From Deltaproteobacteria bacterium (GTDB taxonomy: Bacteria > Desulfobacterota > Dissulfuribacteria > Dissulfuribacterales > QOAL01): 64,000 bases of DNA. Below the pieces are notes generated by a model. That model saw only the letters and a program-made list of their open reading frames with translations. It did not search any database and had not been told where the DNA came from. Both the position numbers and the translations under genes were made by a program. Location of the stretch: NCBI GenBank assembly GCA_026995935.1, contig JALWNK010000017.1:865-64864 (forward strand), read 5' to 3'. This document shows, piece after piece, positions 45,618 through 60,915 of the stretch (position 1 is its first letter; the number at the start of each line of letters is the position of its first letter).

Positions 45618-45682
45618 TTAATAAGCAATGGATTTGTCTGATAACAAGAATTATATTTTATGTCAAGATGGAGGTTGACGCC

Positions 45683-46882
45683 ATGATACCCACAAGACTC
45701 ATAAAGAGAATCTTTGAGGCTGCAAGCATCCAGAGATGGAACGACCACGTGCGCCCAGTTGAGCTCACCGAGCTCGACAAACAGGCACACAAAATGCTCA
45801 TTGCCTACATGCTGGGAAGATTCCAGGAACCGGCCCAGGAGGTCAACTGGCCCCGCATAATAGAAGGTGGCCTTTTCGAATTCCTGCAAAGAGTAGTTCT
45901 AACTGACATAAAACCTCCTGTCTTTCATTACCTCATGAAAAAGGCGGGCAGGCAGCTTAACAGATACGTGCTTGAACAGGTCCAGGAAGAGCTTTCAGAT
46001 CTCACAAGCCTTGCAAGCGGCAGACCCATTATTGAGGAGATGGCGGCCTATCTTGAAAGGCCGGACTTTGCCGCCAGGGAAAAACGCATCCTCAGTGCAG
46101 CCCACTACCTTGCAACCAAGTGGGAGTTTGAGCTTGTCTATAATGCCTTTCCAAAGATGTATGGCATTGATGAAACTAAGAGGGAGATAGAGGACAAGAT
46201 AGAGGACTACTTTGAACTTCCAGGGGTTCAGAGGATCCTTCTTGGAGGAAAATCACACCATTTCGTGGACCTTTTAAGCCAGCTGCGCTTTCAGAAAAGG
46301 TGGTCAAAGACCCCGCGCATCCCCCAGACTACAGTGCTTGGCCACATGCTGGTGGTGGCCTTTTTTTCCTATCTGCTCACTCCTCTTAGAATAAAAAAGC
46401 CCTGTAAAAGGCGCATATACAACAACTTCTTCTCTGCGCTGTTCCATGACCTGCCTGAAGTCTACACCAGGGACATTATCTCCCCTGTTAAGAGAAAAGT
46501 GGCAGGTCTTGAGCAGGTTATCCTGGAGTATGAAAAGAAAAAGCTTGAGGAAAAGATACTCCCGCTACTTCCTGACTCGTGGCAGGAGGAACTCCTCTAC
46601 TTCCTGGAAGATCAGTTTGAAAACAGAATTGTCCAGGAGGGCAGAAAGAAAACAGTCAAGGAGATGAAAGAGGAGTGGAACAGGGATGAATTTCAGCCTG
46701 TTGACGGCACCCTGGTAAAGGTGGCCGATGAGATGGCAGCCTACTGGGAAGCGGCCATCTCCCTTTCGCACGGAATACGCTCTCCTCATTTGGAAGAGGC
46801 CATGGCAAGCCTTGAAAACAAGTATGGAAACCACAAGAGGCTTGCCCATGTGTTTTCCGCTACCAAAGACTACTCCTCGTAG
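45683..46882 (+). CDS. HD-domain metal-dependent phosphohydrolase family protein
   Basis: About 399 aa with H...HD pattern (TVLGHMLVV; SALFHDLPEVYTRDI). The N-terminal RIFEAASIQRWNDH segment resembles YfbR-type HD proteins. ATG 45683 is preceded by GGAGG. Confidence 0.7.
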   Translation: MIPTRLIKRIFEAASIQRWNDHVRPVELTELDKQAHKMLIAYMLGRFQEPAQEVNWPRIIEGGLFEFLQRVVLTDIKPPVFHYLMKKAGRQLNRYVLEQVQEELSDLTSLASGRPIIEEMAAYLERPDFAAREKRILSAAHYLATKWEFELVYNAFPKMYGIDETKREIEDKIEDYFELPGVQRILLGGKSHHFVDLLSQLRFQKRWSKTPRIPQTTVLGHMLVVAFFSYLLTPLRIKKPCKRRIYNNFFSALFHDLPEVYTRDIISPVKRKVAGLEQVILEYEKKKLEEKILPLLPDSWQEELLYFLEDQFENRIVQEGRKKTVKEMKEEWNRDEFQPVDGTLVKVADEMAAYWEAAISLSHGIRSPHLEEAMASLENKYGNHKRLAHVFSATKDYSS

Positions 46883-49014
46883 GTCTCTGCCTTTACCTTC
46901 CAAATCTGGAAAAGAGGGGTCTTTAACTCGACCGGGGAAAAGTAATTCTTGTTGAACTGGTGCCTCAAAAAGAGCTTATTAAAGACGGACTCGGCTATGT
47001 TCTCACTCATGAGGGCCGAATATCCTCCTTTTATTACCTCCATGTTATAGCCCCTTTCCCTGGAATACGTCCTCTTTTCCAGCCTGTCGGGATACCTTAT
47101 ATAAAGGGCCTTTAGGGAGACGACCTTTTGGCCCACAGCAGCCAGGCCCTTTTTTACGTCAACCCTTAAACCAGCTCCATTGCTATTTGTTGCCGTAATC
47201 ACGTCCTTACCAACCCTTGTGTTGTAAAAGGCAATGTAGGTTGGATGGATGCCATCGTGTGTTTTTGGATCCCAGGAACCCAGCCAGAACCACCAGTAAT
47301 TGGTAACCGTAAGGCGCCAATCAGTGAAAAGGTAGATGGGCCTTGTCTGTTTTGGGAAAAAGAACCTCAGCCAGTCTTCCACTGTCACAAGGCCTTTCTG
47401 GGGTTTAAGTCCTGCCGAGGCAATTATCCTTTCCGCGTTTACAGGGCCAGCTCCCAAAACCTCCTTTATGAGACGAAAACCCTTTGATATGTCGCCGCCG
47501 CAGGCCTTGTAGACAAGGTGGGTACCCTTGTTTATTCCCCTTTGGACAAAAAAATTCATGAGGTTGGCCGCTAGCCTTTCATTTTTTGTTGTGTAAGGAA
47601 TCCCGTTGAATACGGAGCGTTCCCCTCCGTGGACCTGCCCATCGTTTATGGTCGCCCGTTTAGCCCAGTAAATCATTGGATAGCCGTGGTCCCACCAGGC
47701 CCAGACAACGGAGTTTTCAGGGGTCTTTAAAGAGGCCTCAACCATGCCGTTTACAAGAAAAGGGGGTTCCTTGGGCCAGAAGGTCTTGTTAAGGTCTCGA
47801 TTGACAGATGGGTATATGAGAACAGCCACAATCAGTGCAACGAGCGTCCACCTTACCTGCTGATTTTTTACAGTGCGTTTCAAAAAGTAAAAGGACTCCA
47901 CAACTATGCATCCGATTCCTATGGCAAGGGTCGGGGCAAGAAATATCAAGAACCTTTTTGCAAAGAAGAAGGAGAGGCCGCTTAAGAGAATGGGAACCGC
48001 GAGGTAAAGGGCCTTTGTCCTCATCCTGTAAAAGAGGAAAAGCACACCTATTATGCCGGTAGCAAAGGCAAGGGTGCTGTCTGTTGTCTTGACAATGATC
48101 TCCTTAAGGGACGGAATGGCCTGTTCGGATATGGAAACACCAATGTTAGGGAAGGCCCCTGAGACCTCCTTGGAAATGTACTTGTATGTATTGACTACAT
48201 CCTGAACCGACTTTACAGGAAGTTCCATTCCCTTTAAAAAAAACACTCCGATGGCAGCTGCTGCCAACCCTCCCAGGAAGATAAGGCCTTCCCTTTTTTC
48301 CGGCCGGTAGAAAAAAACAATAGAAACCGCCATTGGCAAAAGCGCAATAACAGAGGCCACCTGGGGAGTCTGATCCCACCACCACAGGAAGAAAAGGTAG
48401 TTAAGGATTGCGCCAAGAAACCACAGGTACCTGGCCTTGTTCCTGGTCTCCCCGAATTTTATTGCAAAAAACACCGCTGCCATTGCGAAGGTAACATTCA
48501 TACAGTCCGTATCGAACCAGCCTAGACTGCTTCTGTATACGTAGTAAAATGACATAAGGGAAAAAAGCCCTGAGACGCAGGCCATTAAAGGGCCGCCATA
48601 AAAGCGCCCTATGCCGTAAACTGGCAGAAACAGCGCAAGTCCCAGAACAGCAGGAAGCACAGCGCCTAACCAGTTGAAGGATATGCCTGTTACCTGGTGA
48701 ACAGCAAAGGCAATGGAGGAGAGAAGCGGAGGAGGCTCAGGTCTGGGCGGGCAGTCTGGTACTGCCCGTTTCTCATCAATGGGCCTGTAGGTACCCTGGG
48801 CAAGGTCCCTGGCTAAGGTGAGATAATAATAGCCGTCAAAGGTGGTAAGAAGGGGCTCCCCCTTGTAAAGGGCCCTGTCCGGCTTGGCCTTCCAGTCCTG
48901 TATATCCTCCATCCTTACAAAGAAAGCGCAAGCAATGACCAGGATTACAAAAAAAATCTCTATCCATCTCTTATTAATGTCCAAAAGGGGCCTCCACTTT
49001 TCTTTTTCAGCCAA
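46870..49014 (-). CDS. STT3/PglB/AglB-family oligosaccharyltransferase
   Basis: 714 aa with about 13 TM helices and a periplasmic C-terminal domain. Catalytic motifs: first-loop TTFDGYYYLTLARDL (cf. PglB DGYxxxxxARD), GWFDTDCM (DxD), EL5-like GVSISEQ (SVSE/TIxE-type), and WAWWDHGYPM (the WWDYG motif). Confidence 0.85.
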   Translation of the reverse strand: MAEKEKWRPLLDINKRWIEIFFVILVIACAFFVRMEDIQDWKAKPDRALYKGEPLLTTFDGYYYLTLARDLAQGTYRPIDEKRAVPDCPPRPEPPPLLSSIAFAVHQVTGISFNWLGAVLPAVLGLALFLPVYGIGRFYGGPLMACVSGLFSLMSFYYVYRSSLGWFDTDCMNVTFAMAAVFFAIKFGETRNKARYLWFLGAILNYLFFLWWWDQTPQVASVIALLPMAVSIVFFYRPEKREGLIFLGGLAAAAIGVFFLKGMELPVKSVQDVVNTYKYISKEVSGAFPNIGVSISEQAIPSLKEIIVKTTDSTLAFATGIIGVLFLFYRMRTKALYLAVPILLSGLSFFFAKRFLIFLAPTLAIGIGCIVVESFYFLKRTVKNQQVRWTLVALIVAVLIYPSVNRDLNKTFWPKEPPFLVNGMVEASLKTPENSVVWAWWDHGYPMIYWAKRATINDGQVHGGERSVFNGIPYTTKNERLAANLMNFFVQRGINKGTHLVYKACGGDISKGFRLIKEVLGAGPVNAERIIASAGLKPQKGLVTVEDWLRFFFPKQTRPIYLFTDWRLTVTNYWWFWLGSWDPKTHDGIHPTYIAFYNTRVGKDVITATNSNGAGLRVDVKKGLAAVGQKVVSLKALYIRYPDRLEKRTYSRERGYNMEVIKGGYSALMSENIAESVFNKLFLRHQFNKNYFSPVELKTPLFQIWKVKAETYEE

Positions 49015-51928
49015 ACAGCCTATTCCAGGTCTCTAATACTCCTTTTCGTATGTCGTCAAGCTCTTCTAAAGGTACAACAGGCTTTTCCATATCAAGGGCC
49101 TTAAGATTTATAAGCTCCTGGTATCGACTGTGGGCATAGCGTAAACACTCGACATCACCTTTTGTAAGGTAGCCTGCTTCCCCAGTGGCCATTAAAATAC
49201 CCCGGGTATCCCTGCAATATGCAAGCCTTCTTTCTATACTTGCATGCCGTAAAACCAGATATTGGGCAATAAACTCTATATCCACAAGGCCTCCAGGTGA
49301 TTTTTTCAAGTGGAAAAGCCCTTCTCCACCCCTTTTAACGTGACTTTTTATAATCTTGCCCCGCATCTTGACTATTTCCTCTTTAAGCCTTTTGGGGTCC
49401 CGTTCCTGACGGATAACACAGGTCCTTATGGACTCGAACCGTCTTCCACAGTCCTTATCCCCACAGAGGAACCTTGCCCTGATGAGGGCCTGATGCTCCC
49501 ATGTCCATGCTTTTTTAAGCTGATATTCGTTAAAAGTGGAAACCGTACTCACCAAAATGCCCTGGGAACCGTTTGGTCTCAGCCTCGTATCAATCTCGTA
49601 GAGTACCCCTTGAGAAGTTCGGGCGGAAAGAAAAAAGAGGAGTCTTTGTATGAGCCTTGAGTAGAAATAGCCAAGCTCCCCCCTTTGGGCCTGGTTCAGG
49701 TGCCCAAATCTTTCCGGCTGGTAAAGGAATACCAGGTCAAGGTCTGAAGAGTAGGACAACTCCCTGCTGCCCAGCTTGCCATAGGCTATGACTGCCAGCC
49801 CGCTTTCCTGGATGGTCTCAGTCCCTTCTACGAAAGCAGGCCTTCTCTTGGCCATATCCTGCCAGGCCCCCCTGAAGGCCTCCTCCAGGATGACCTCGGC
49901 AAGGTTGGTCAGGGAGATGCCCACATTTTCCACCCCCATGATGCCCTTAAGCTGGGAAGCGGCAATGCGAAGTACCTGGGCCTTTTTAAAACGCCTGAGC
50001 TCATCCAGCCAATGCTCCAGGTCCTTTCTGGTAAGGGCCTCGATTGTGGCCAATAGCAACCTCTTAAGCCCCTCCTTATCAACCTCCCTGAAAAGAGAGT
50101 CTGTACTTACAAGCTCATCAAGCAGTATGGGCTGACGACGAAGGAGCTCTCCTATAAGTCTGCTTCTGCTACAAAGAAATACAAGATGCTCAAGGGCCTC
50201 AGGATTCTGATCAAGCAGCACAAGATAGATGCTCCTTTTTAGCACCGCCTCAAAGATAGAAAGGCCAAGTGTAAATGCCTTGTCAGGGTCAGTTGTGGAA
50301 GCACTTGCCAGAAGGAGATTTGGGACTAGCCTGTCAAGAAGCTCTTGTACCTGTCCTGGAAGGGATTTAACCTTTTTGGATTCTCTGAAATTGTAAATGA
50401 GCCTTGATGTTTCGCCAGGATTTGAAAAACCAAATCCTTCGAGGATGGACAGGGTGCGAGGGTCTTCAGGGGAAGACCAGACAAAAAGGGCCTCAGGCCT
50501 TGCCTGGTCCTTTTTACCGTCTTCCTGCTGGCCATCTTCCCCTTCTTCATGAAAAAGCCCCTGGAAAACCGAACGGGCATTTTTCGTATGTTGGTGATAG
50601 CTGTCAAGAAAATGGTCCCAGTCAGGATAACCAAGAGACAGGGCCAGCCTGTAGCGTCTTTCTCCGTCCCCTGGAAGGGTCTGCACCTGTCTGTCATGGT
50701 ACTCCTGGAGCCTGTTTTCCGTAACCCTGAGCCACACGTAGGCCTTTGCCAAGTCCCAGCAGGTTTCCTCTGACAAAAACCCGAGCCTCTTTATCACCTC
50801 AAGTGCATCAATCAGGGATTGGACCTGTAGGGCCTTTATTCTTCCGCCCTTAATGAGCTGGAAGGTCTGGACCACGAATTCTATGTCCCGGATCCCCCCT
50901 GGACCTAGCTTTACATTACTCGTACCCGCCTTTTCCGCCTGTTCGGCAACTATCATGGCCTTCATCTCTTTGAGGGACTCTATGGCTGAGTAGTCAATAT
51001 ACTTTCTGTAAACAAAGGGCCTAAGCTCACCAAGAAGCTGCCAGCCTCCTTCTACGTCCCCGGCAACGGGCCTGGCCTTAACCAGTGCATACCTTTCCCA
51101 CTGACGCCCCTGCCTCTCGTAGTACTCAAGCATCGCATCCATTGTCATGACAAGGGGCCCGGAATCACCAAAGGGCCTGAGCCGGGTGTCTACCCTGAAA
51201 ACAAAGCCCTCGGGCATGGGCCTTGAAAGAATGGCCATGAGCCTCTGGCACTGGTGGAGAAAGTATTCGTGATTGGAGATGCTTTTTCTGCCCCCGCTAG
51301 TGCATCCTTTGCCCCTGAACGCAAAGATGAGATCTATATCTGAAGAAAAATTGAGCTCACCAGCCCCAAGTTTTCCCATTCCAAGGACTATGAGACGTAA
51401 AATCTCCCCTTTTGAATCCTGTGGGAAGCCAAAATCTCTGGCCATCTGCCCTTCAAGCCATTTAATTACCGTTTCAAGGCATACGCATGCAAGGGTAGAA
51501 AGTTCTAGACAGGTTTCTGAAAAGGGGCTCAGTCCGCCCATATCCCTTATGGCAATCCTTAGCATAAGCATGTTTCGAAAAAGACGAATCCTTTTTGCAA
51601 ACTCTTCTTCTGACTGGACCTTAAGAAGCTCCGTATCGGCCATCTCCTTGATCTTTTCAGGGGGAAGGGAGGTATTTAGGAGGTTTTCGTCAAGAATCTG
51701 CCTTAAAAGGGCAGGCCTTCTTTGGATAAGAGTTTTGACAAACAGACTAAGGGGAATAACCGTGCCAAGAAGTTGTGAACATTGTGAAACCTTAGACACC
51801 GGGGCAACACCAAGGGATGGGGTTACCTCTTTGAGAGTCTTTTCCCCTTCCTCAACAAGCCTTTCTGGAAAGGATTCCAGGGAAGCAACACTCAGACTTT
51901 TGCTAAAGGAATCCAATTTTTCTTTCAT
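49007..51928 (-). CDS. glnE: Bifunctional glutamine synthetase adenylyltransferase/adenylyl-removing enzyme
   Basis: 973 aa with two nucleotidyltransferase modules (GMGKLGAGELNFSSDIDLIFAF and AYGKLGSRELSYSSDLDLVFLY), each followed by a GlnE-type helical domain. Confidence 0.92.
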   Translation of the reverse strand: MKEKLDSFSKSLSVASLESFPERLVEEGEKTLKEVTPSLGVAPVSKVSQCSQLLGTVIPLSLFVKTLIQRRPALLRQILDENLLNTSLPPEKIKEMADTELLKVQSEEEFAKRIRLFRNMLMLRIAIRDMGGLSPFSETCLELSTLACVCLETVIKWLEGQMARDFGFPQDSKGEILRLIVLGMGKLGAGELNFSSDIDLIFAFRGKGCTSGGRKSISNHEYFLHQCQRLMAILSRPMPEGFVFRVDTRLRPFGDSGPLVMTMDAMLEYYERQGRQWERYALVKARPVAGDVEGGWQLLGELRPFVYRKYIDYSAIESLKEMKAMIVAEQAEKAGTSNVKLGPGGIRDIEFVVQTFQLIKGGRIKALQVQSLIDALEVIKRLGFLSEETCWDLAKAYVWLRVTENRLQEYHDRQVQTLPGDGERRYRLALSLGYPDWDHFLDSYHQHTKNARSVFQGLFHEEGEDGQQEDGKKDQARPEALFVWSSPEDPRTLSILEGFGFSNPGETSRLIYNFRESKKVKSLPGQVQELLDRLVPNLLLASASTTDPDKAFTLGLSIFEAVLKRSIYLVLLDQNPEALEHLVFLCSRSRLIGELLRRQPILLDELVSTDSLFREVDKEGLKRLLLATIEALTRKDLEHWLDELRRFKKAQVLRIAASQLKGIMGVENVGISLTNLAEVILEEAFRGAWQDMAKRRPAFVEGTETIQESGLAVIAYGKLGSRELSYSSDLDLVFLYQPERFGHLNQAQRGELGYFYSRLIQRLLFFLSARTSQGVLYEIDTRLRPNGSQGILVSTVSTFNEYQLKKAWTWEHQALIRARFLCGDKDCGRRFESIRTCVIRQERDPKRLKEEIVKMRGKIIKSHVKRGGEGLFHLKKSPGGLVDIEFIAQYLVLRHASIERRLAYCRDTRGILMATGEAGYLTKGDVECLRYAHSRYQELINLKALDMEKPVVPLEELDDIRKGVLETWNRLFG

Positions 51929-51952
51929 TGATTATCCCTCACCGAGAATCAG

Positions 51953-52858
51953 TTATGAGCCCTTGGTCTTCCTGGCCTCCCTTTCTGCAACCTGATTGAT
52001 GATAAGCTGGGCATTGTCCTTTGAAAGGCCCAACTTTTGCCTGTCTTCCTCCAGCACATCCATTTCCTCTCTGGAAAGACTTCCGTCATCGTGGATCATC
52101 TGTTCAACTTCCAGCTGAAACCTTTCTCTCCTTAGCCTGAGCTGCTCGGTGAACCCAGAGGCTATAATACCTGCAGGCAGGGATACCAGGCCAACTCCAG
52201 CAATGGTTATAAAGGTGGCAAATATCCTGCCTTGTACTGTGATTGGGGTAACATCGCCGTAGCCTACCGTGGTAAGGGTAACTATTGCCCACCACATGGC
52301 CTTTGGAATGGAACCAAAGGCATCTGGCTGTACCTCATGTTCGAAAATGAATATTCCCACCGAGGCAAATATCAAGATAATGAACATCAGCATGACAGAG
52401 ACTAGAAGGGACTCTGCCTCTTCCCTTAGGACGTCGCGAAGAAGATCAAAGGCTACGGAATAACGGGTAAGCTTGAGCAGACGAAGAAGTTGTACAAGCA
52501 TGAGCTGGGGTGTCTGGGTCCAGCCTGATATTATGAGAAAAAAGGGAAGAAAGGAAAGAAGGTCCACAAGCCCCATAAAGGAAAGGATGTAGTCCATCCT
52601 GCACCGTAAAGGCCCTTGGTTTTTGTAGTCTTCAGGGCAGCTCCATATCCTTAAAAGATATTCCAGCATGAAAATAAAGGATGAAAACCCCTCAAAGAGC
52701 CAGAGGAAGTAGCCATATTCCCCCTCAATCGAGGGCTCAGTTGTAAGCACAAGGCAGAGGGAGCTTGAAAAAATTATAAAAACCATAAAGGCAGAAAGGA
52801 ACCGGTGCAAAGGCCCATGCCATTTATTCCTGAAGTAAACAGCAACTGCCTTTCTCAT
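51953..52858 (-). CDS. Voltage-sensor-type potassium channel (Ion_trans family)
   Basis: 301 aa, 6 TM. S4-like LVQLLRLLKLTRYSVAF. Selectivity filter TLTTVGYGDV. Confidence 0.88.
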   Translation of the reverse strand: MRKAVAVYFRNKWHGPLHRFLSAFMVFIIFSSSLCLVLTTEPSIEGEYGYFLWLFEGFSSFIFMLEYLLRIWSCPEDYKNQGPLRCRMDYILSFMGLVDLLSFLPFFLIISGWTQTPQLMLVQLLRLLKLTRYSVAFDLLRDVLREEAESLLVSVMLMFIILIFASVGIFIFEHEVQPDAFGSIPKAMWWAIVTLTTVGYGDVTPITVQGRIFATFITIAGVGLVSLPAGIIASGFTEQLRLRRERFQLEVEQMIHDDGSLSREEMDVLEEDRQKLGLSKDNAQLIINQVAEREARKTKGS

Positions 52859-52862
52859 GGTA

Positions 52863-54020
52863 TTATGTCTCCTCTGTATAGACGAGAAGAGCCTTTATGT
52901 CCTTCTCCTCTTCAAGATTTCCGCCAACAGCAGATGCAAGCACTCCAAAGGTTGCCATGAGCTTGGAAAAGTGAAATGCTGGAAGTGGCTTGCCTCCCAT
53001 GCCTGCCCATCCGGCCAACACGCTCTCTGGAAGAATGGCAATAATTAAATAGGATATGACAAAAAGGTTGATCCAAAAGGATATCATACCGACAAACAGT
53101 GTGGCGAAAAGGACAAATCGTGATCTCACCGCCTGTTCCTTCATTCTGTCACTTCTGCTTATAACGTGCAGATTTTGACCAAAATATATGGAAAGGATGG
53201 AGGCAAATATGACACATGCAAGCAGGAGATCGAGCCATCCAGATTTTATGGCTGCACCCATCTCCCAGGCCTCAGCACTCAGGAACAGAAATATCATAGA
53301 AACGGCAGTGGCCGCAATAAAACGTCCAAGATGAAACATCATGAGTACTGACCTGGAAACAAGCACATCTTTAAATATTGCAGGCCATTCCAAGGAGAGC
53401 ACCTTGAGATAGAATTTCCACTTGCTTTTTATAGGCGAGGCCTCCTCCACCCTTGGATCAGCGGCGTCCATGAGATGACGTAATATCTTTCTTTTTTCTT
53501 GAATGCTCCAGTCATGAGGTGGCTCACCGGTCCAGAACTTCCTCGGCCTCATTACTGACTCAAGACTGTGATCAAGACCCCAAAGATGCCCCAGGCAGTG
53601 TTTTACAAGGCTTACTAACGCCTTTTCCTGTCTTTCCCTGTCTTTCAGCTCAAGTATGCGTGCAAGGCTTATTACGGCAGTTTCAAGCATATTGGAGGGG
53701 ACTCCACTAACCCCTTGTTCAAAACGCGATTTAAGGGGAAAACTGGTAAGTACCAGCACATAATCAAAACCATATTCAATCTTGATATCAGAGCCAAACT
53801 CGAGAAGGTTTAGGGGATCAGGAGGGACACTTCTTGAAAAATCCTGTCTTTTAAGAATAGAAAATCTCCAAAGAAATTCTGGGAAGTTCTGCTCCATATT
53901 CTTTTTTAGCCATTTAACAACCCAATTGGCCCAAATACATGCAATCTCATCCTGGGCGTCAACCACCAAGCCCATGTTTATAAGTGCCTTCTCTTTGTTG
54001 CCATTTCCAAATGTATTCAT
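52863..54020 (-). CDS. Archaemetzincin-like domain (degenerate active site) fused to a C-terminal multi-TM domain
   Basis: 385 aa. The N-terminal ~190 aa ends in AVISLARIL...KHCLGHLWGLDHSLESVM, which parallels the archaemetzincin HExxHxxGLxHCxxxxCxM. Here Glu is replaced by Cys and the Cys ligands are lost. The C-terminal half has 4-5 hydrophobic helices. Confidence 0.55.
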   Translation of the reverse strand: MNTFGNGNKEKALINMGLVVDAQDEIACIWANWVVKWLKKNMEQNFPEFLWRFSILKRQDFSRSVPPDPLNLLEFGSDIKIEYGFDYVLVLTSFPLKSRFEQGVSGVPSNMLETAVISLARILELKDRERQEKALVSLVKHCLGHLWGLDHSLESVMRPRKFWTGEPPHDWSIQEKRKILRHLMDAADPRVEEASPIKSKWKFYLKVLSLEWPAIFKDVLVSRSVLMMFHLGRFIAATAVSMIFLFLSAEAWEMGAAIKSGWLDLLLACVIFASILSIYFGQNLHVISRSDRMKEQAVRSRFVLFATLFVGMISFWINLFVISYLIIAILPESVLAGWAGMGGKPLPAFHFSKLMATFGVLASAVGGNLEEEKDIKALLVYTEET

Positions 54021-54075
54021 GCTGCATTAATACTCCAGGCTGAAAAATGAAACCACTCTTCAGGCCTCATTTTTC

Positions 54076-54110
54076 AAAAAAAAAGCCCGCAGGGCTATCC
54101 CTGCGAGCTC
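54076..54110 (-). terminator. Rho-independent terminator after yfdX-like gene
   Basis: Minus strand GCTCGCAGGG-ATAG-CCCTGCGGGC followed by T9. Confidence 0.8.
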
Positions 54111-54135: not shown

Positions 54136-55059
54136 TCAGGAAGAGATGAGCCTTTCCTTGAACTCCTTTAGCTTTTTAAGGAGCTCTTCGAACATCTTGG
54201 CCGCCTTGTTTTTACCCTTAATCTCTTTCTTTATAGAGTCTATCCTTTCCTGCAGATCCTTGTATACCTTAGGCTGGTCTTTCCCGTAACCAAGTATCTT
54301 GGCAAGCTCAAGCTGCCTTTTGGCCTCATTGAGATACTTTAGTGCCTGCTCCTTGTCGGTCTTTGCAACCTTTGAGGCCTCTGCAATAAGGTCAGATGCC
54401 CTGACCAGAGGAATGGGTATAACTATCTTTTTCACTACCATGGAGTTCAGGGCTATCTGAAGCACGCTCTTTGCCTCATCCACCTTGCCATCAATGATGT
54501 ATTTAGAGGCAAGCTTCATTGCATCTGGATAGGTGGCAAGGGGCAGATTTTCTATGACAATGTCTATCTCACTTTGCAGGGTATCCAGAAGAATCCTTGC
54601 CCCCTGGACATCACCATGGTTGAGTTTTGTTTTGACCTCGGTAATCTTCTCTGCAATCTGCTTGGGAGTAAGATCTGTATCTACAACAACAGTGTAGCTG
54701 TTTATTGGAATAAGAGAGACATTTTTATTGGCTGCGAGAATTACTTCCAATTCACCTATGACCTTCTTTAGGAGGTCAAGGGCCTCCTTGGATTTCTTCT
54801 GGTTTAAAAGGTCGAGAACCTTATAGGTATCAGCAATGGCCTTTATGGCCTTCTGATTCAACTCCTTTTTAATATCAGCAGCCTTTTTCTTCTCCTTTTC
54901 CACGGCACCCTTTGAGACCTGGGCAGATGTCTTGGGAGGCGCCTTTTTTTCAGCAGCCTTTTCCTGGCAGAAACCAGTACCTGATGGAACAGTCATAAAA
55001 AATAACGCCACAAGTATTGCTAAAAATCCTGTCTTCTTCGCACTCTTTTTCAAGACCAT
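54136..55059 (-). CDS. YfdX-family periplasmic protein
   Basis: 307 aa with a signal peptide and a Lys/Glu-rich linker. Then two helical repeats with YfdX-like features (AIADTYKVLDLLNQKKSKEALDLLKKVIGELEVI...; ASKYIIDGKVDEAKSVLQIALNSMV...LNEAKRQLELAKILGY). Assignment is from memory of the family pattern. Confidence 0.6.
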   Translation of the reverse strand: MVLKKSAKKTGFLAILVALFFMTVPSGTGFCQEKAAEKKAPPKTSAQVSKGAVEKEKKKAADIKKELNQKAIKAIADTYKVLDLLNQKKSKEALDLLKKVIGELEVILAANKNVSLIPINSYTVVVDTDLTPKQIAEKITEVKTKLNHGDVQGARILLDTLQSEIDIVIENLPLATYPDAMKLASKYIIDGKVDEAKSVLQIALNSMVVKKIVIPIPLVRASDLIAEASKVAKTDKEQALKYLNEAKRQLELAKILGYGKDQPKVYKDLQERIDSIKKEIKGKNKAAKMFEELLKKLKEFKERLISS

Positions 55060-55080
55060 TTCTTTCCTCCTTTTTTAAAT

Positions 55081-55704
55081 TTAGGCAGAGGCGCTCTGAA
55101 CGCCCGCCTGGCTGTCAAAATGTTTAGGCTCTTCCGCTTTCTTTTTGGCAGCTATGGCAACAATTACATGGCTCCAACCATTAAATATCAGATCAATGGA
55201 TATAAACAGCCCAAGGGTCCATATGGCTGAAAAGGGCCATGAAATTCCTATGAGAATGGCGATTGCCACTGAGGCTAGGCCACTTATGAGAAGTATTCCC
55301 CAGTCTGAAAGCTCTTTTCTGTGCTGAATAGCAACGACAATCCTGAAAACACCTACGGCAAAGATGGAGGCTGCCAAAATCAGGGTAAGGGCAAGAGACG
55401 CTGCCACCGGATTCCACAAGGAGATAAAGCCGCCAGCCACGTAAAGGGCACCCCCGATTATATGAGGAAGCCTGCTTTTCCATCCTTTTGTTGCCTTAAT
55501 GGCCTCTATCAGCTGAAGTATGCCTCCTGCAAGCATGAAAGAAGCAAAAAGAAAAATGGATGAAAGGGTTGCAAGAGGGGTCAGAACCAGACCAATTGTA
55601 CCTGTAACAATAAAGAAAAAACCCAACAGGAGATGGAATTTCCAGTTTTTTCCCACGTCTCCCCACTCAAATTTGTTAGTTAGATCATTTTCCGACTCTT
55701 TCAC
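55081..55704 (-). CDS. hdeD: HdeD-family (DUF308) membrane protein
   Basis: About 207 aa with six TM helices carrying the repeated DUF308 pattern (WKFHLLLGFFFIVTGTIGLV..., LAGGILQLIEAI, GIFRIVVAIQ, GIISLIFG-like). GTG 55704 follows AAGGAGGAG. Confidence 0.75.
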   Translation of the reverse strand: MKESENDLTNKFEWGDVGKNWKFHLLLGFFFIVTGTIGLVLTPLATLSSIFLFASFMLAGGILQLIEAIKATKGWKSRLPHIIGGALYVAGGFISLWNPVAASLALTLILAASIFAVGVFRIVVAIQHRKELSDWGILLISGLASVAIAILIGISWPFSAIWTLGLFISIDLIFNGWSHVIVAIAAKKKAEEPKHFDSQAGVQSASA

Positions 55705-55984
55705 AATAAACTCCTCCTTTAACTTTTTTGTAATAAATTTTATGAAAATCAAACAAAAATGTGATTGAGCTGTACCACTTTAACTTTGGTTCGCTTTTTA
55801 AAATGTCAAGAAAATTTTTTAAATTTTTCTAAATAGCGAAGAATTTCAACTGGTTACAGTGAACAAAAACTCACAGAGACAGGGCAGATCCGCATTTTCG
55901 AGATAGATGCGCTATGGACATTTCCCAAGGCGTGCTTAGTTTTGTGTACCATCTTGCTTAAAAAAATTAGGAGGCAAAAATAAA

Positions 55985-56699: not shown

Positions 56700-56909
56700 C
56701 TAACAGCCTTTATTCCTTAGAAGATCCTCGATCATCTTGTTGTGGACATCCACAATGGACATGCCTGTCTCATAAACCGTCATCCACACGCAGCGCCTGA
56801 ATGCACGGTAAAGATCAGATCGGACGTGGATCTTCAAAAGGGCAAGGTCCTCTTCCTCCTGTCCGGAACCCTTGGACATCTTTTCTCTGTCATCCATTTG
56901 GCTTGCCAT
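56700..56909 (-). CDS. Small ribbon-helix-helix-like (CopG/Arc-type) protein, putative
   Basis: 69 aa. An acidic N-terminal tail, then LLKIHVRSDLYRAFRRCVWMTVYETGMSIVDVHNKMIEDLL, which fits a beta-strand/helix/helix RHH layout. Divergent from waaF. Confidence 0.45.
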   Translation of the reverse strand: MASQMDDREKMSKGSGQEEEDLALLKIHVRSDLYRAFRRCVWMTVYETGMSIVDVHNKMIEDLLRNKGC

Positions 56910-56971
56910 ATGGGGCTTTTTTTAATAAAAAACAGGACAATCCCGCAAGACTTGCAAGGCAGGAATTTTCG

Positions 56972-58012
56972 TTGAATCCGGACAAGATAATAATAAGGGG
57001 CACCAACTGGATAGGAGATGCGGTCATGACACTGCCTGCCCTTGCTGCCATCAGAAAACTCTTCCCTGATACCCAAATAGACGTGCTTGCAAGAACCTGG
57101 AGCTCCCCTGTTTACAAATACTGTGAACACACAGATAACGTCATGGAATTTGAAGGCCCCAAGAGACTTCCTGGAATAGGCGTTCTTTCCAAGGTAGCCA
57201 GAAAGATAAAGAATACAGGTTATAAACTTGGTATAGTCCTTCCAAATTCCTTTGAATCGGCCCTTATATTCCGAATAGCCGGAATCCCCCAAATATATGG
57301 CTATAATACGGACTTTCGCTCTGTAATTCTTTCAAGGGCCGTTGATGTACCTGGGGATAAGGGGACAAAACATGAGGTCTTCTACTACCTGAACCTGATT
57401 GAAAAGGTCTTTGGTAAAAGGTGGGAAGAAGGCAGCCTGGCGCCGGAGCCCGTCCTCCACGTTCCGGAGGATGAACAAAACAGGGCCAGAGGGCTCCTTA
57501 AGAAAAATGGTTGGAACGGAAAGACAAGGCTTTTGGGCCTAAATCCCGGGGCCGCCTTTGGCCCTGCCAAATGCTGGCCGGCGGAAAAGTATCGGGAGCT
57601 TGCAGGGGCCCTTACCCAGACTTTTCCAGACTCAACCATCGTTGTCTTCGGAACCGAAAGGGAACGGGAGGCTGGAGAGGAAATATGCGCCCCACTTGGC
57701 AAAAGGGCCATAAATCTTTGCGGAAGAACCGCTCTTGATGAGGCCATCTGCACCATCTCCATCCTGGACCTCATGGTCTCAAACGATTCCGGACTCATGC
57801 ACGTTGCAGCGGCCTGTCAGGTTCCCCTTGTTGCACTTTTTGGCTCCACAAATCCCGTAACAACAGGCCCTTTCAGCAGGCAGGCCAGGGTAATAAGGCA
57901 TGAGCTGCCCTGTTCCCCCTGTCTTAGCAGGGAATGCCCCAGGGACTTTATCTGCATGCTCGGAATTACCGTCTCGGAAGTCCTTGATGTGTGCCAAGAA
58001 ATGGTGAAATGA
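56972..58012 (+). CDS. waaF: ADP-heptose:LPS heptosyltransferase II (GT9)
   Basis: KIIIRGTNWIGDAVMTLPALAAIRKLFP, LNPGAAFGPAKCWP and VSNDSGLMHVAAA are GT9/WaaF motifs. A TTG start at 56972 (AGGA 7 nt upstream) is preferred over the track start 56801, whose extra 57 codons overlap the RHH-like gene. Confidence 0.85.
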   Translation: MNPDKIIIRGTNWIGDAVMTLPALAAIRKLFPDTQIDVLARTWSSPVYKYCEHTDNVMEFEGPKRLPGIGVLSKVARKIKNTGYKLGIVLPNSFESALIFRIAGIPQIYGYNTDFRSVILSRAVDVPGDKGTKHEVFYYLNLIEKVFGKRWEEGSLAPEPVLHVPEDEQNRARGLLKKNGWNGKTRLLGLNPGAAFGPAKCWPAEKYRELAGALTQTFPDSTIVVFGTEREREAGEEICAPLGKRAINLCGRTALDEAICTISILDLMVSNDSGLMHVAAACQVPLVALFGSTNPVTTGPFSRQARVIRHELPCSPCLSRECPRDFICMLGITVSEVLDVCQEMVK

Positions 58013-58614
58013 GCGAAAAGGGCCGAAGCAGGGCCGTATTCCTTGACAGGGACGGCACCATAATCCGGGAAGTCTCATATCTCAACAGGCTTTCAGATAT
58101 AAGGCTCCTTCCAAATGTTTCAAAGGCCATATCCATGCTCAACCTGGCGGGCTTCAAGGTGGTTGTAGTCTCCAACCAGTCTGGCGTGGCAAGGGGCCTT
58201 TTTGACACTTCCTTTGTCAAAAAGTGCCATGATGTTATAGAAAAGAGGCTTAAACGGGCAGGGGCAAGTGTGGATGCATGGTATTTCTGCCCCCACCACC
58301 CAACTGAAGGCAGCCCCCCATTTCGAAAAAAATGTTCATGCAGGAAACCTGAAGCAGGGCTATTAAAAAGGGCATGCAGCGAACTTGGCATTGAACCGTC
58401 CCTGTCATTCATGGTGGGAGACAGCCTTCGGGACCTTGAGGCGGGATGGAATGGAGGAACAAGGTCCATACTGGTTCTCACAGGCTATGGGGAAAAGACC
58501 TTAAAGGAGATGGATTTTCTCCAAAGAAAACAGGTCTCTTTTGTTGCAAAAAACCTTTTTGATGCCTCAAAATGGATAATAGATCAAGGCTTAAATTCCC
58601 TTCAAGAATCCTGA
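58009..58614 (+). CDS. gmhB: D-glycero-beta-D-manno-heptose-1,7-bisphosphate 7-phosphatase (HAD-IIIA)
   Basis: AVFLDRDGTII, VVVSNQSGVARG, the CPHHP...C.CRKP zinc motif and MVGDSLRDLEAG. The ATG overlaps the waaF stop (ATGA). Confidence 0.9.
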   Translation: MSEKGRSRAVFLDRDGTIIREVSYLNRLSDIRLLPNVSKAISMLNLAGFKVVVVSNQSGVARGLFDTSFVKKCHDVIEKRLKRAGASVDAWYFCPHHPTEGSPPFRKKCSCRKPEAGLLKRACSELGIEPSLSFMVGDSLRDLEAGWNGGTRSILVLTGYGEKTLKEMDFLQRKQVSFVAKNLFDASKWIIDQGLNSLQES

Positions 58615-59636
58615 TCATAAAGCTCAGTGCCCTGGGGGATATTGTCCAGACGCTTCCTGTGCTTGACGCACTGAAAAAGACGTGGCCCCAGGCCTCTGTT
58701 GACTGGATTACAGGAGAGGTAGGGGCAGGCCTTCTTGAAGGCCACCCCCTTTTAGACCGGGTAATAGTCTATCCAAGAAAGAGGCTTGGAAGGCTTGCTA
58801 AAAACCCCCTTTCCTGGCCACATCTTACAAAGGAGATCCTTGGACTAAAAAAAGAACTTCGCCTTTCAAGGTATGACGCAGCCCTTGATCTGCAGGGCCT
58901 TTTTAAAAGCGGGATAATAACCATTCTTTCCGGGGCAAAAATCAAGGCAGGTTTTGACAAGGGACGAGAGTTCAGCCACATGTTTTTAAATAAAAGGCTT
59001 CCACCCTATGATCCTGACAAACACGCGGTGCTTCGTTACCTTGATCTTGCCCGTACCTTGGGGGCACACACCAAGGACATCCGCTTTCCCTTAGGCATTT
59101 CAGACACCCACAGGCAGATGGCCAGGGATATCCTTGGCAGCCTTGGCATTGAGGCTGGGCGGTTCGTCATCCTTATTCCTGGAACCATCTGGCCCACAAA
59201 AAGATGGGTGAATTCGTACTTTGCCGAGCTTGCCGTCATGATAAATAAATGTCTTGGCCTTAAAAGCGTAGTTGTTGGAGGAAGCCAGGACAGGGCCATG
59301 GGAAGAGAAATAGAAAATTTCTCAAAGAAGTCTGCAAGAGACCTGACAGGCAAAACCGATCTTAAAACCCTTGCTGCCATCTTTCAGCTTGCCAAAACTG
59401 CCGTATCCACAGATACAGGCCCCATGCATCTTGCCGCAGCAACGGATCTCAAAATTGTTGCCCTTTTTGGCCCCACTGCCCCCTGGCGGACAGGCCCCTT
59501 TGGGCACGGTCACAAGGTCTTAAGGAGGGAGCTTGGGTGCAGTCCATGTTTCAAAAGAAGGTGTCAGGAAAACCTTTGCATGAAGGAAATAGAGCCAAAG
59601 GAGGTCTTTCAGGCTGTCAAAGAGCTTTGCAAATAA
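58572..59636 (+). CDS. waaC: LPS heptosyltransferase I-like glycosyltransferase family 9
   Basis: ILIIKLSALGDIVQTLPVLDALKKTWP..VDWI, PGTIWPTKRW and VSTDTGPMHLAAA. The I-versus-other heptosyltransferase assignment is tentative. Confidence 0.75.
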   Translation: MDNRSRLKFPSRILIIKLSALGDIVQTLPVLDALKKTWPQASVDWITGEVGAGLLEGHPLLDRVIVYPRKRLGRLAKNPLSWPHLTKEILGLKKELRLSRYDAALDLQGLFKSGIITILSGAKIKAGFDKGREFSHMFLNKRLPPYDPDKHAVLRYLDLARTLGAHTKDIRFPLGISDTHRQMARDILGSLGIEAGRFVILIPGTIWPTKRWVNSYFAELAVMINKCLGLKSVVVGGSQDRAMGREIENFSKKSARDLTGKTDLKTLAAIFQLAKTAVSTDTGPMHLAAATDLKIVALFGPTAPWRTGPFGHGHKVLRRELGCSPCFKRRCQENLCMKEIEPKEVFQAVKELCK

Positions 59637-59704
59637 CGCATATTAAAATAGGATTAGGGGCTTAAGGCCTATAGGCCACAAAAAATGGCAGAAAAAGGGG
59701 AAAA

Positions 59705-59905
59705 ATGGCAGAAACCATTAGCAAGGAACTTCTAGAAGTAATTGCATGCCCAAAGTGTAAGGGTGAAGTGAAGCTTAGCCTTGATGGGGACGCCCTCATC
59801 TGCAAAAGATGCCGCCTTGTATATGAAATCAGGGAAGGAATACCCATCATGCTCATAGATGAGGCCATTAGCCTTGAAAGATACCAGAAGACAGATGGAT
59901 CCTGA
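59705..59905 (+). CDS. Trm112/YcaR (UPF0434) family zinc-ribbon protein
   Basis: 66 aa. LLEVIACPKCKGEVKL...LICKRCRLVYEIREGIPIMLIDEA is the family signature. Confidence 0.9.
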   Translation: MAETISKELLEVIACPKCKGEVKLSLDGDALICKRCRLVYEIREGIPIMLIDEAISLERYQKTDGS

Positions 59906-60908
59906 CAGGCTAAAGAAACGGCTTCTTGAGGCGGTTTCGTCCTTTCCCGGGAAAAAGGTACTGGTGGTTGGGGACGTTATGCTTGACCAGTTCGTATGGG
60001 GCGAGGTGAGCAGGATATCACCAGAGGCCCCTGTTCCCGTGGTGCAGGTGGAAAAGGAGTCCTTTCTCCTTGGAGGAGCGGCAAATGTTGCCAACAACCT
60101 TAGAAGTCTTGAGGCAAGCCCTGCCCTTTCAGGCGTAATAGGAAGGGATGCCTTTGGGGAGAAGATCATTCGGCTTTGCGACAAAAAGGGGATAAGGACC
60201 AGTGCCATGGTCACGGACCCGGAAAGGCCTACAACCCTTAAGACCAGGATCGTTGCCCGTGGCCAGCAGGTGGTAAGGGTGGACAGGGAAGAGGCTGGTA
60301 CCCTTTCGGACAAGGTGGTCTCTACGCTCAAGGAGCAACTTGAAGATAACCTTGGTGACAGTCACGCCGTTGTAATCTCTGACTACCACAAGGGAGTTGT
60401 GTGCAGGAAAATCATGGAATTTCTGGTGGATCATTCAGGCCGAAACACCATCCCCTGCCTTGTGGATCCCAAACCCGTTAACGCCAAACTGTACAAGGGG
60501 GCCACAGTGATAACCCCAAACGAGAAGGAGGCCGAGGCCATATCCTCCCTTCCCATAAAGGGTGACAAGGGCCTTGAAAAGACTGCAAGGGACATTGCCC
60601 AGAAACTGTCTCTTCAGATCGTGCTCATAACAAGGGGTCCTGAGGGCATGGCCCTTTGGCAGAAGGACAAGGGACTTTTCACCATTCCCACCATGGCACG
60701 GGAGGTCTTTGACGTGACAGGGGCAGGGGATACCGTCATATCCCTCATGGCCCTTGGCCTTACAACTGGCCTCTCCCCGTGTGAGGCTGCCTTTCTTGCA
60801 AACCTTGCCGCAGGAATTGTAGTTGGAAAGGTGGGGACGGCAACTGTCACCAGGGGCGAACTGGAGACGGCCATAAAAAGGGCACCTGTGGAATCCTTTG
60901 TCTATTGA
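59895..60908 (+). CDS. hldA: D-glycero-beta-D-manno-heptose-7-phosphate kinase (RfaE/HldE domain I only, PfkB family)
   Basis: KVLVVGDVMLDQFVWGEVSRISPEAPVPVV, GGAANVANN, KPN, and DVTGAGDTVI..LA. No C-terminal cytidylyltransferase-like domain II. The ATG overlaps the end of trm112. Confidence 0.88.
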   Translation: MDPDRLKKRLLEAVSSFPGKKVLVVGDVMLDQFVWGEVSRISPEAPVPVVQVEKESFLLGGAANVANNLRSLEASPALSGVIGRDAFGEKIIRLCDKKGIRTSAMVTDPERPTTLKTRIVARGQQVVRVDREEAGTLSDKVVSTLKEQLEDNLGDSHAVVISDYHKGVVCRKIMEFLVDHSGRNTIPCLVDPKPVNAKLYKGATVITPNEKEAEAISSLPIKGDKGLEKTARDIAQKLSLQIVLITRGPEGMALWQKDKGLFTIPTMAREVFDVTGAGDTVISLMALGLTTGLSPCEAAFLANLAAGIVVGKVGTATVTRGELETAIKRAPVESFVY

Positions 60909-60915
60909 GCGTCCC

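What the first reader, a model, noticed from the sequence alone, without database searches (positions are those of the whole stretch)
46870..54020. Unusual co-directional gene string: degenerate archaemetzincin-membrane fusion, K+ channel, GlnE, PglB-like oligosaccharyltransferase
Seen in the sequence: four minus-strand genes are packed with 4-, 24- and -8-nt junctions.
- 54020 to 52863, then 4 nt, then 52858 to 51953.
- Then 24 nt, then 51928 to 49007.
- The glnE stop overlaps the STT3 start by 8 nt.
- A strong terminator (54076-54110) lies just upstream of the string. The convergent HD gene overlaps the downstream end.

This layout suggests a single transcription unit with translational coupling of glnE and the oligosaccharyltransferase. 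A nitrogen-regulation enzyme, a voltage-sensor K+ channel, a membrane-anchored pseudo-protease and an N-glycosylation-type transferase are not a combination I know from any described operon.

Inference: either a fortuitous housekeeping string, or a functional module linking envelope/periplasmic protein modification with ion and nitrogen status.
Basis: partly seen in the sequence, partly recalled or inferred. Interest (0 to 1): 0.6.

Follow-up and report, generated by a model that had tools for sequence, protein, structure and literature searches.

The report
Composite operon from two conserved gene pairs
The four tightly packed genes are real, but they are a genus-specific joining of two separately conserved pairs (an inactive protease-like membrane protein with a potassium channel, and glnE with a PglB-like glycosyltransferase), not a four-part functional module.

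Summary
The genome is a hydrothermal-vent Desulfobulbales-like MAG. The four minus-strand genes and their 4- and 24-nt junctions are as described. The claimed 8-nt glnE/STT3 overlap is probably an ORF-calling artefact. The start conserved in six species is TTG 48984, behind a GGAGG, which leaves a 22-nt spacer.

Tight packing is the norm in this genome: 63% of same-strand pairs lie 30 nt or less apart.

Synteny in 40 relatives and about 240 fetched loci splits the string in two.
- **M-K pair.** The metzincin-like membrane protein (M) is followed by the Kv-type channel (K) in 16 of 16 assessable relatives and 23 of 80 species overall, in many different contexts.
- **glnE-STT3 pair.** glnE precedes STT3 in 25 of 80 species. 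This looks like a remnant of an LPS-heptose/glycan neighbourhood, because glnE also sits next to heptose genes in E. coli and about a quarter of other GlnE loci.
- **All four together.** They occur only in five relatives of one genus.

M belongs to an uncharacterised family: a cytoplasmic archaemetzincin fold that never has the catalytic Glu, plus a 4-TM domain with no PDB fold match. Elsewhere its neighbours are Kef antiporters, Na/Ca exchangers or PsiE.

Verdict: an ordinary lineage-specific operon fusion, with one worthwhile lead, M as a partner of cation transporters. No RNA data exist to test co-transcription.

The parts
54083..54110 (-). Intrinsic terminator ending the upstream hdeD-yfdX unit. 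It marks the 5' boundary of the string.
   Evidence: 12-bp stem, 8 GC pairs, loop of 4, followed by T9. The sequence is shown. The hairpin is conserved in G005, G009, G007 and G010.
54021..54082 (-). Putative promoter and leader of the string. A -10-like TATTAA at 54032-54027 ends 6 nt before the ATG, so the mRNA may be leaderless (inferred).
   Evidence: Sequence. TATTAAT is conserved in G005 and TAAAAAT in G009 at the same place. The consensus scan did not detect it.
52863..54020 (-). M: a 385-aa membrane protein. It has a cytoplasmic archaemetzincin-fold domain (about residues 10-195, motif HCLGHLWGLDH without the catalytic Glu, Met-turn kept, Cys4 site absent), about 4 TM helices, and an acidic GGNLEEE...EET tail.
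   Evidence: - AF2 pLDDT 92.2, pTM 0.89.
- Foldseek: 2x7m E 4e-7 TMt 0.72; 3zvs_B TMt 0.78.
- NCBIfam archmetzin 20.8 bits against a cut-off of 145; no Pfam hit.
- The family motif HxxGHxxGLxH carries no Glu at position 2, apart from one doubtful marginal hit.
- The TM domain alone has pLDDT 81 and no PDB fold match.
51953..52858 (-). K: a 301-aa 6-TM voltage-sensor-type K+ channel. It has an S4 segment LLRLLKLTRYS, a TTVGYGD filter and a charged helical C-terminus. Its ATG lies 4 nt after M's stop, and M's last codons GAG GAG AC act as its Shine-Dalgarno box.
   Evidence: Pfam Ion_trans 98.8 bits and Ion_trans_2 55.7 bits. Translation. Junction sequence, conserved in five species.
49007..51928 (-). 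glnE: bifunctional glutamine synthetase adenylyltransferase / adenylyl-removing enzyme, 973 aa. Its start lies 24 nt after the K stop, with a GGTGAGGG Shine-Dalgarno box.
   Evidence: NF008292 957 bits against a cut-off of 487. Pfam GlnE matched in two stretches, plus GlnD_UR_UTase. Junction.
48991..48995 (-). GGAGG Shine-Dalgarno box of the STT3 gene, inside the 22-nt glnE-STT3 spacer.
   Evidence: TGGAGG followed by TTG is conserved in six species.
46870..48984 (-). PglB-type single-subunit oligosaccharyltransferase (STT3 family), 704 aa from the revised TTG start. The longest ORF would start at 49014.
   Evidence: - Pfam STT3 46.2 bits and STT3-PglB_core 40.3 bits.
- The alignment to C. lari PglB 5ogl/3rce keeps TTxDGY, the DTD pair, the EL5 SISE, KRF and WWDHG.
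- Start position.
45668..46882 (+). Convergent HD-domain (YfbR-like) gene overlapping the STT3 stop by 13 nt. It marks the 3' boundary.
   Evidence: The HD gene is convergent to STT3 in 13 species, the type (a) arrangement.
54136..55752 (-). The hdeD (55081-55752) and yfdX (54136-55059) pair upstream. It lies near M-K in four genera, in varying orientation.
   Evidence: Pfam DUF308/HdeD and YfdX. Neighbourhood maps of G000, G015, G017, G014 and L087.
56801..61455 (+). LPS inner-core heptose cluster: GT9 waaF-like, gmhB-like HAD, a second GT9, PfkB heptose kinase, DUF4416. In other genera it lies directly divergent from glnE.
   Evidence: In G012, G016, G035 and G033 the GT9-gmhB-GT9 genes abut glnE.

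Best explanation
The string is a lineage-specific operon fusion, not a four-part functional module.

**Unit 1, M-K.** This is a conserved two-gene module. An inactive (Glu-less) archaemetzincin-fold membrane protein is made together with a Kv-type K+ channel, with a 4-nt spacer and a Shine-Dalgarno box inside M's last codons. I infer that M is a partner or regulator of cation transport. The mechanism is untested.

**Unit 2, glnE-STT3.** This is an older adjacency inherited from an envelope-glycan neighbourhood: the LPS-heptose genes, then glnE, STT3 and a GtrB-like GT2. In that neighbourhood glnE is a long-standing 'passenger' next to heptose genes, as in E. coli ygiF-glnE-hldE.

**The fusion.** In one subclade of this genus the block UPF0128/hdeD-yfdX/M-K was inserted between the heptose cluster and glnE.
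- This removed glnE's own upstream intergenic region.
- glnE-STT3 are therefore now most likely read through from the M-K promoter downstream of the yfdX terminator (inferred).
- STT3's usual GT2 partner was separated and now lies on another contig.
For: **All four adjacent in few genomes.** They are adjacent only in G000, G005, G009, G007 and G010. K-E-S without any M gene occurs in G008 and G002.

**M-K pair**
- Adjacent in 16 of 16 relatives where both lie on assessable contigs.
- Phyletic pattern in 41 genomes: 18 have both, 1 has M only, 3 have K only, 19 have neither.
- M-K appears in 23 of 80 species-level loci, in at least 6 different flanking contexts.
- Within the same well-supported M clade (100/99), two gammaproteobacterial MAGs have a Kef-type K+/H+ antiporter instead of Kv.
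- Verrucomicrobial members sit next to Na_Ca_ex.

**glnE-STT3 pair**
- Adjacent in 25 of 80 STT3 loci, in two contexts: E-S-<HD in 13 and GT9-gmhB-GT9<>E-S-GT2 in 12.
- STT3's commonest neighbour is the GtrB-like GT2, in about 45 of 80 loci. In G000 it lies on C62.
- glnE is followed by GT9 or HldE genes in about 23 of 80 diverse GlnE loci and in E. coli K-12.

**Anatomy**
- No internal terminators or promoter-like sites above chance, and no Rfam element.
- The glnE-STT3 spacer with GGAGG-TTG is conserved.
- Short spacers are the genome norm.
Against: - No transcript data exist, so co-transcription and the read-through model are inferences. Promoters inside coding sequence cannot be excluded.
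- glnE-STT3 adjacency in 25 species could reflect an unknown functional link rather than inheritance.
- In genus g4, glnE is flanked at 4-nt overlaps by prfB and a different, RCK-type K+ channel. This second glnE/K-channel juxtaposition sits awkwardly with 'pure accident'.
- Most genomes are fragmented MAGs, and my ORF maps use a crude longest-ORF caller.
- 43 of 80 M loci have none of the listed ion-transport neighbours.
Confidence: 0.7

Rival explanations
1. This is a true four-gene functional module. It would couple periplasmic or envelope protein glycosylation (STT3) with K+ flux (K, M) and nitrogen status (GlnE), and would be selected as a unit.
For: - Same strand, 4/24/22-nt spacers and no terminators.
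- The order is retained in five congeneric species at 57-85% GlnE identity.
Against: - The order is restricted to one subclade of one genus.
- Sister lineages keep M-K and glnE-STT3 apart, and G008 and G002 have lost M altogether while keeping K-E-S.
- STT3's usual partner is a GT2, and glnE's usual neighbours are heptose genes.
- Tight packing is the genome norm.
Confidence: 0.06
2. The arrangement is entirely fortuitous. Even the two pairs persist only through phylogenetic inertia among related genomes, and no gene in the string functionally depends on a neighbour.
For: - Most M-K and E-S examples come from one order of Thermodesulfobacteriota, so the counts are not independent.
- The glnE-STT3 spacer varies from about 20 to about 300 nt between clades.
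Against: - M-K survives in at least 6 different flanking contexts, with 2-13-nt spacers in most.
- The pair also occurs in a gammaproteobacterial MAG (L094).
- M recurs next to unrelated cation transporters in other phyla.
Confidence: 0.15
3. The meaningful link is glnE with a K+ channel (K+/glutamate-glutamine homeostasis), and STT3 and M are bystanders. This rests on two independent juxtapositions of glnE with non-orthologous K+ channels in one family.
For: - Genus g1 has Kv-glnE with a 24-nt spacer.
- Genus g4 has prfB-glnE-RCK channel with 4-nt overlaps, in G017 and G024, with fragments in G020 and G022.
- The expected chance rate of a K-channel neighbour is well below 1% per arrangement (my estimate).
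Against: - Only 4 of 80 wider GlnE loci have any TVGYGD-type channel within 3.5 kb. One of these is the g4 genome G017 itself, and the other three are on the opposite strand and more than 1.4 kb away.
- The Kv channel travels with M, not with glnE, in all other genera.
Confidence: 0.08

Closest known systems
E. coli ygiF-glnE-hldE locus (glnE next to ADP-heptose/LPS-core genes)
   Same: - glnE lies co-directionally beside heptose-pathway genes.
- The same holds in about 23 of 80 diverse GlnE loci, including Pseudomonas, Halomonas and Pantoea.
- In relatives of this genome the GT9-gmhB-GT9-heptose kinase cluster abuts glnE directly.
   Different: - Here the heptose cluster is divergent and separated from glnE by five inserted genes.
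- glnE is followed by an STT3 oligosaccharyltransferase, not by hldE.
PglB, the bacterial N-oligosaccharyltransferase (Campylobacter lari 3RCE/5OGL; Desulfovibrio homologues, PMC4894442, PMC12229607)
   Same: - Single-subunit STT3 with the catalytic Asp of EL1, the DxD pair, the EL5 Glu, the conserved Arg and a WWDxG motif.
- Pfam STT3 and STT3/PglB core score above their cut-offs.
   Different: - Only about 20% identical, with 84 bits against the 1300-bit PglB equivalog cut-off.
- No pgl-type glycan assembly locus nearby. The conserved partner is one GtrB/DPM1-like GT2, unlinked in this genome.
- Donor and acceptor are unknown.
Archaemetzincins (AmzA; consensus HEXXHXXGXXHCX4CXMX17CXXC, PMC3427221)
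   Same: Same fold for residues about 10-195 (TMt 0.72-0.78). Three His, the Gly and the Met-turn are kept.
   Different: - The catalytic Glu is absent across the family, apart from one doubtful marginal hit, and the four Cys are absent.
- The domain is fused to a 4-TM domain of unknown fold.
- The score is far below the NCBIfam cut-off.
Catalytically dead protease-like partners of eukaryotic Kv channels (DPP6/DPP10 with Kv4; ADAM22/23-LGI1 with Kv1). This is an analogy from general knowledge.
   Same: A membrane protein with a protease fold lacking catalytic residues is associated with a voltage-sensor K+ channel. ADAM22 appears among the Foldseek hits.
   Different: - No homology is implied beyond the metzincin fold.
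- Here the association is genomic only.
- The domain is predicted to be cytoplasmic, not extracellular.
Prokaryotic 6-TM voltage-sensor K+ channels (KvAP / MVP type)
   Same: Ion_trans architecture, S4 basic repeats and a TVGYGD filter.
   Different: Scores are below the equivalog cut-offs for Kch (44.9 against 425) and the Methanocaldococcus MVP channel (42.5 against 300). The channel is encoded downstream of M.

Membership tests
Operon / single functional module of four genes | Same strand, short spacers, no internal terminator | tested here: met
   This is also the genome-wide norm.
Operon / single functional module of four genes | Gene order conserved across divergent relatives | tested here: not met
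   All four are adjacent in only 5 of 41 genomes, all from one genus. The pairs are separate elsewhere.
Operon / single functional module of four genes | Co-transcription shown by RNA | not testable with these tools
   No RNA run holds the sequence. The 14 runs listed for any kind are typed as DNA (guessed) metagenome contigs.
Archaemetzincin (M54) metalloprotease | HEXXHXXGXXH with catalytic Glu | tested here: not met
   The window has HCLGHLWGLDH. In the family, position 2 is L/V/A/I/C and so on. One marginal hit reads HEIGH, but it aligns only to M's C-terminal part.
Archaemetzincin (M54) metalloprotease | Four conserved Cys (CX4CXMX17CXXC) | tested here: not met
   The third His is followed by SLESVM, with no Cys. 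The consensus is taken from the abstract of PMC3427221.
Archaemetzincin (M54) metalloprotease | Metzincin fold with Met-turn | tested here: met
   Foldseek 2x7m, 3zvs and 4axq with TMt 0.72-0.78. M157 is nearly invariant.
Archaemetzincin (M54) metalloprotease | Curated family score | tested here: not met
   NF033823 scores 20.8 bits against a cut-off of 145.
PglB/STT3 oligosaccharyltransferase | STT3 domain above the Pfam cut-off, plus the PglB/AglB core domain | tested here: met
   PF02516 scores 46.2 against 24.5. PF21436 scores 40.3 against 23.
PglB/STT3 oligosaccharyltransferase | Catalytic motifs: EL1 Asp, DxD, EL5 Glu, WWDxG | tested here: met
   TTFDGYYY, GWFDTDC, SISE and WWDHG align to the C. 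lari PglB motifs and are invariant in 13 orthologues.
PglB/STT3 oligosaccharyltransferase | PglB equivalog score / N-glycosylation activity | tested here: not met
   NF050801 scores 84 bits against a cut-off of 1300. Activity is not testable here.
GlnE (GS adenylyltransferase / adenylyl-removing enzyme) | Equivalog score and two nucleotidyltransferase halves | tested here: met
   NF008292 scores 957 against 487. Pfam GlnE matches in two stretches.
Voltage-sensor K+ channel (Ion_trans) | 6-TM Ion_trans domain, K+ selectivity filter, charged S4 | tested here: met
   PF00520 scores 98.8 against 25. TTVGYGD and LLRLLKLTRYS are present.
Anti-phage defence system | Any component matching PADLOC models | tested here: not met
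   No hits for any of the four proteins.

The most novel reading that the evidence does not exclude
M represents an undescribed family of membrane-anchored pseudo-archaemetzincins that act as accessory or regulatory subunits of cation transporters.
- A zinc- or ligand-binding cytoplasmic domain, without a catalytic base, is coupled to a 4-TM domain of novel fold.
- In different lineages it partners with a Kv-type channel, a Kef K+/H+ antiporter or a Na/Ca exchanger.
- It would be a bacterial counterpart of the dead-protease partners of eukaryotic Kv channels.
Probability: 0.3. Interest if true: 0.6.

Novelty: new member of a known kind. Interest (0 to 1): 0.3.

Why it matters
As a four-gene 'module' it does not matter much. 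It shows how a compact genome can fuse unrelated conserved pairs into one apparent operon, and that functional inference from a single genome's gene string can mislead.

Two by-products are useful.
1. **M family.** This is an unannotated protein family of about 250 clusters at 50% identity, with no Pfam model. It has a confidently predicted Glu-less archaemetzincin fold and an unmatched membrane domain, and it repeatedly sits beside K+ and other cation transporters. That makes it a testable candidate for a new kind of transporter partner.
2. **STT3 in Desulfobulbales-like bacteria.** The PglB-like enzyme keeps all catalytic motifs, and its conserved partner is a single GtrB-like GT2 near heptosyltransferases. 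This hints at a minimal glycosylation pathway different from the Campylobacter pgl locus.

Tried and rejected
- **RNA evidence.** No RNA run holds the region. The runs listed for any kind are typed as DNA (guessed) metagenome contigs.
- **Internal promoters and terminators.** The sigma-70-type scan gave fewer hits than shuffled sequence, and only one minus-strand hit, inside glnE. The sigma-54 consensus was at chance level, with no site upstream of any gene.
- **Rfam.** It found only the tRNA at 45546-45617 and two sub-threshold chance hits.
- **Defence system reading.** No PADLOC hits.
- **Fold of M's membrane domain.** Foldseek against the PDB gave nothing better than E about 1 and TM below 0.27. 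Pfam at E up to 1 gave nothing.
- **M-K fusion proteins.** None is evident among 150 representatives; lengths are about 370-430 aa, with single outliers of 515 and 741 aa that I did not examine.
- **Literature.** Nothing in the held library links archaemetzincin-like proteins or PsiE with K+ channels, or treats glnE-hldE as a functional operon.
- **Earlier-findings index.** It held only first-reader notes for this genome, none checked.
Full report
**Source.** The window is C17:865-64864 of a 2.59-Mb, 79-contig genome. Record titles of near-identical loci and the runs that hold it place it in a hydrothermal-vent Desulfobulbales-like MAG of the Thermodesulfobacteriota.

**Observation**
- ORF listing and direct reading confirm four minus-strand ORFs:
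  - M, 52863-54020
  - K, 51953-52858
  - glnE, 49007-51928
  - STT3, 46870-49014
- The spacers are 4 nt and 24 nt.
- A strong terminator lies at 54110-54083 after yfdX.
- A convergent HD gene overlaps the STT3 stop by 13 nt.
- Family scans support the names:
  - GlnE: NF008292, 957 bits against a cut-off of 487.
  - K: Ion_trans 98.8 bits, with a TTVGYGD filter.
  - STT3: PF02516 46.2 bits plus the PglB/AglB core domain.
  - M: only a 20.8-bit archaemetzincin hit.
- The 8-nt glnE/STT3 overlap holds only for the longest ORF.
  - A GGAGG box (48995-48991) followed by TTG 48984 is conserved in six congeneric genomes.
  - In four of them the ORF cannot begin earlier.
  - The real junction is most likely a 22-nt spacer, not an overlap.
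- Tight packing is unremarkable here. 63% of same-strand neighbour pairs are 30 nt or less apart, and there are 128 runs of four or more such genes.
- No internal terminator, promoter-like site above chance, sigma-54 site or Rfam element was found.
- No RNA data set holds the region, so co-transcription remains an inference from anatomy.

**Synteny in 40 relatives.** I searched all four proteins in 40 relatives and mapped 40 neighbourhoods.
- All four genes are adjacent only in G000, G005, G009, G007 and G010, all of one genus.
- G008 and G002 have K-glnE-STT3 but no M anywhere in the genome.
- Everywhere else the string falls into two separate pairs.

**The M-K pair**
- It is adjacent in 16 of 16 genomes where both genes lie on assessable contigs.
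- The phyletic pattern is 18 both, 1 M only, 3 K only, 19 neither.
- The flanks differ between lineages: carbonic anhydrase, amino-acid permease, PsiE, YfdX and others.

**The glnE-STT3 pair**
- It is adjacent in part of genus g1, in g6, in g3 and in family f2.
- It is not adjacent in g4, g5 or six other families.

**Wider sampling of STT3 and GlnE loci**
- Among 80 species-level STT3 loci, glnE precedes STT3 in 25. There are two contexts:
  - glnE-STT3-<HD in 13.
  - GT9-gmhB-GT9<>glnE-STT3-GT2 in 12.
- STT3's commonest neighbour, in about 45 of 80 loci, is a GtrB/DPM1-like GT2 with C-terminal TM helices. In this genome that gene sits on another contig, C62:58502-59503.
- glnE has a widespread habit of lying beside LPS-heptose genes:
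  - ygiF-glnE-hldE in E. coli K-12.
  - GT9 or HldE genes within 3.5 kb downstream in about 23 of 80 diverse GlnE loci.
- In genera g3, f2 and f10 the heptose cluster abuts glnE directly. In the window it is separated by UPF0128, hdeD, yfdX, M and K.
- The simplest history is an insertion of that block upstream of glnE in one subclade. This created the apparent four-gene operon and removed glnE's own intergenic promoter region.

**What M is**
- The family has about 100 clusters at 90% identity and 254 at 50%. It has no Pfam model, and the sources call it 'hypothetical' apart from one JGI 'predicted Zn-dependent protease' label.
- AlphaFold2 on a 75-sequence alignment gives pLDDT 92.
- Residues about 10-195 match archaemetzincin structures (2x7m E 4e-7; 3zvs TMt 0.78).
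- The motif is HxxGHxxGLxH across the family. Position 2 carries no Glu, apart from one marginal HEIGH hit that aligns only to the C-terminal part. The Cys4 site of true archaemetzincins (PMC3427221) is absent.
- M is therefore a pseudo-protease that may still bind metal.
- There is no signal peptide, and the positive-inside pattern puts this domain in the cytoplasm (inference).
- The C-terminal about 190 residues form about 4 TM helices with invariant intramembrane Glu, Gln and Arg residues and a GGNLEEE...EET tail. Modelled alone they give pLDDT 81, with no PDB fold match.

**M's neighbours in 80 species**
- Kv channel immediately downstream: 23.
- Kef-type K+/H+ antiporter immediately upstream: 2 gammaproteobacterial MAGs.
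- Na_Ca_ex exchanger: 3 Verrucomicrobia, including the isolate Roseibacillus ishigakijimensis.
- PsiE: 6 Thermaceae. About 8 Desulfobulbales additionally have M-K-PsiE.
- DUF1206: 3 Chloroflexi.
- None of these: 43.

In a maximum-likelihood tree the Kv- and Kef-linked M proteins fall in one clade supported 100/99. The Kv-linked gammaproteobacterial member is sister to the group that holds the Kef-linked ones. Recurrent pairing with unrelated cation transporters is the basis for inferring that M acts with them. How it does so is unknown.

**STT3.** The alignment to C. lari PglB keeps the EL1 Asp, the DxD pair, the EL5 Glu, the Arg and WWDHG, and these are invariant in 13 orthologues. It looks catalytically competent but is far from the PglB equivalog (84 bits against 1300).

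**Loose end.** In genus g4, glnE lies in prfB-glnE-(RCK-type K+ channel) with 4-nt overlaps. This is a second, independent glnE/K-channel juxtaposition. It is not general, since only 4 of 80 wider GlnE loci have any K+ channel within 3.5 kb. I keep a glnE-K+ link as a low-probability rival.

**Verdict.** The 'functional module' reading is not supported. The string is an ordinary, genus-level operon fusion of two conserved pairs. The M family and its association with cation transporters is the only part that merits follow-up.

Noticed in passing
window 52863-54020; loci L092, L097, L107, L110, L132, L117-L141: Outside the Desulfobulbales the M family sits directly beside other cation-transport genes on the same strand: a Kef-type K+/H+ antiporter, a Na_Ca_ex exchanger, PsiE or DUF1206. 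The family has no Pfam model, and its membrane domain has no PDB fold match.
   Followed up: partly
window 46870-48984; G000 contig C62:58502-59503; loci L143-L222: The PglB-like STT3 has a conserved GtrB/DPM1-like GT2 neighbour in about 45 of 80 species, often with a GT9 gene nearby. In this genome the GT2 orthologue (73% identical) is unlinked. This hints at a minimal lipid-linked sugar pathway unlike the Campylobacter pgl locus.
   Followed up: partly
L048 (G017) and L055 (G024): In a sister genus glnE lies in prfB-glnE-(2-TM RCK-type K+ channel) with 4-nt overlaps. This is a second, independent juxtaposition of glnE with a K+ channel.
   Followed up: partly
window 54021-54032: A -10-like TATTAA ends 6 nt before M's ATG. 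It is conserved in G005, and G009 has TAAAAAT at the same place. The string may start as a leaderless or near-leaderless mRNA.
   Followed up: no
window 54136-55752 and loci L047, L049, L045, L087: hdeD and/or yfdX lie within one to four genes of M-K in four genera, in varying orientations. This suggests a loosely conserved envelope/ion-stress neighbourhood.
   Followed up: partly
window 55985-56671: A UPF0128/TIGR00703 gene (274 bits) lies between hdeD and the heptose cluster. It recurs near M or hdeD in G014 and in Thermaceae loci (cluster c3).
   Followed up: no
window 49815-49851: A sub-threshold Rfam CRISPR-DR8 hit (29.3 bits against 39) lies inside glnE on the plus strand. It is a single copy and is taken as chance.
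   Followed up: no
loci L051-L053 (G004, G006, G003): In another subclade of the same genus the order is alpha-carbonic-anhydrase-like gene < > M-K-PsiE-(TrmFO-like gene, judged by eye). M-K is thus embedded in a different, also conserved, context.
   Followed up: no
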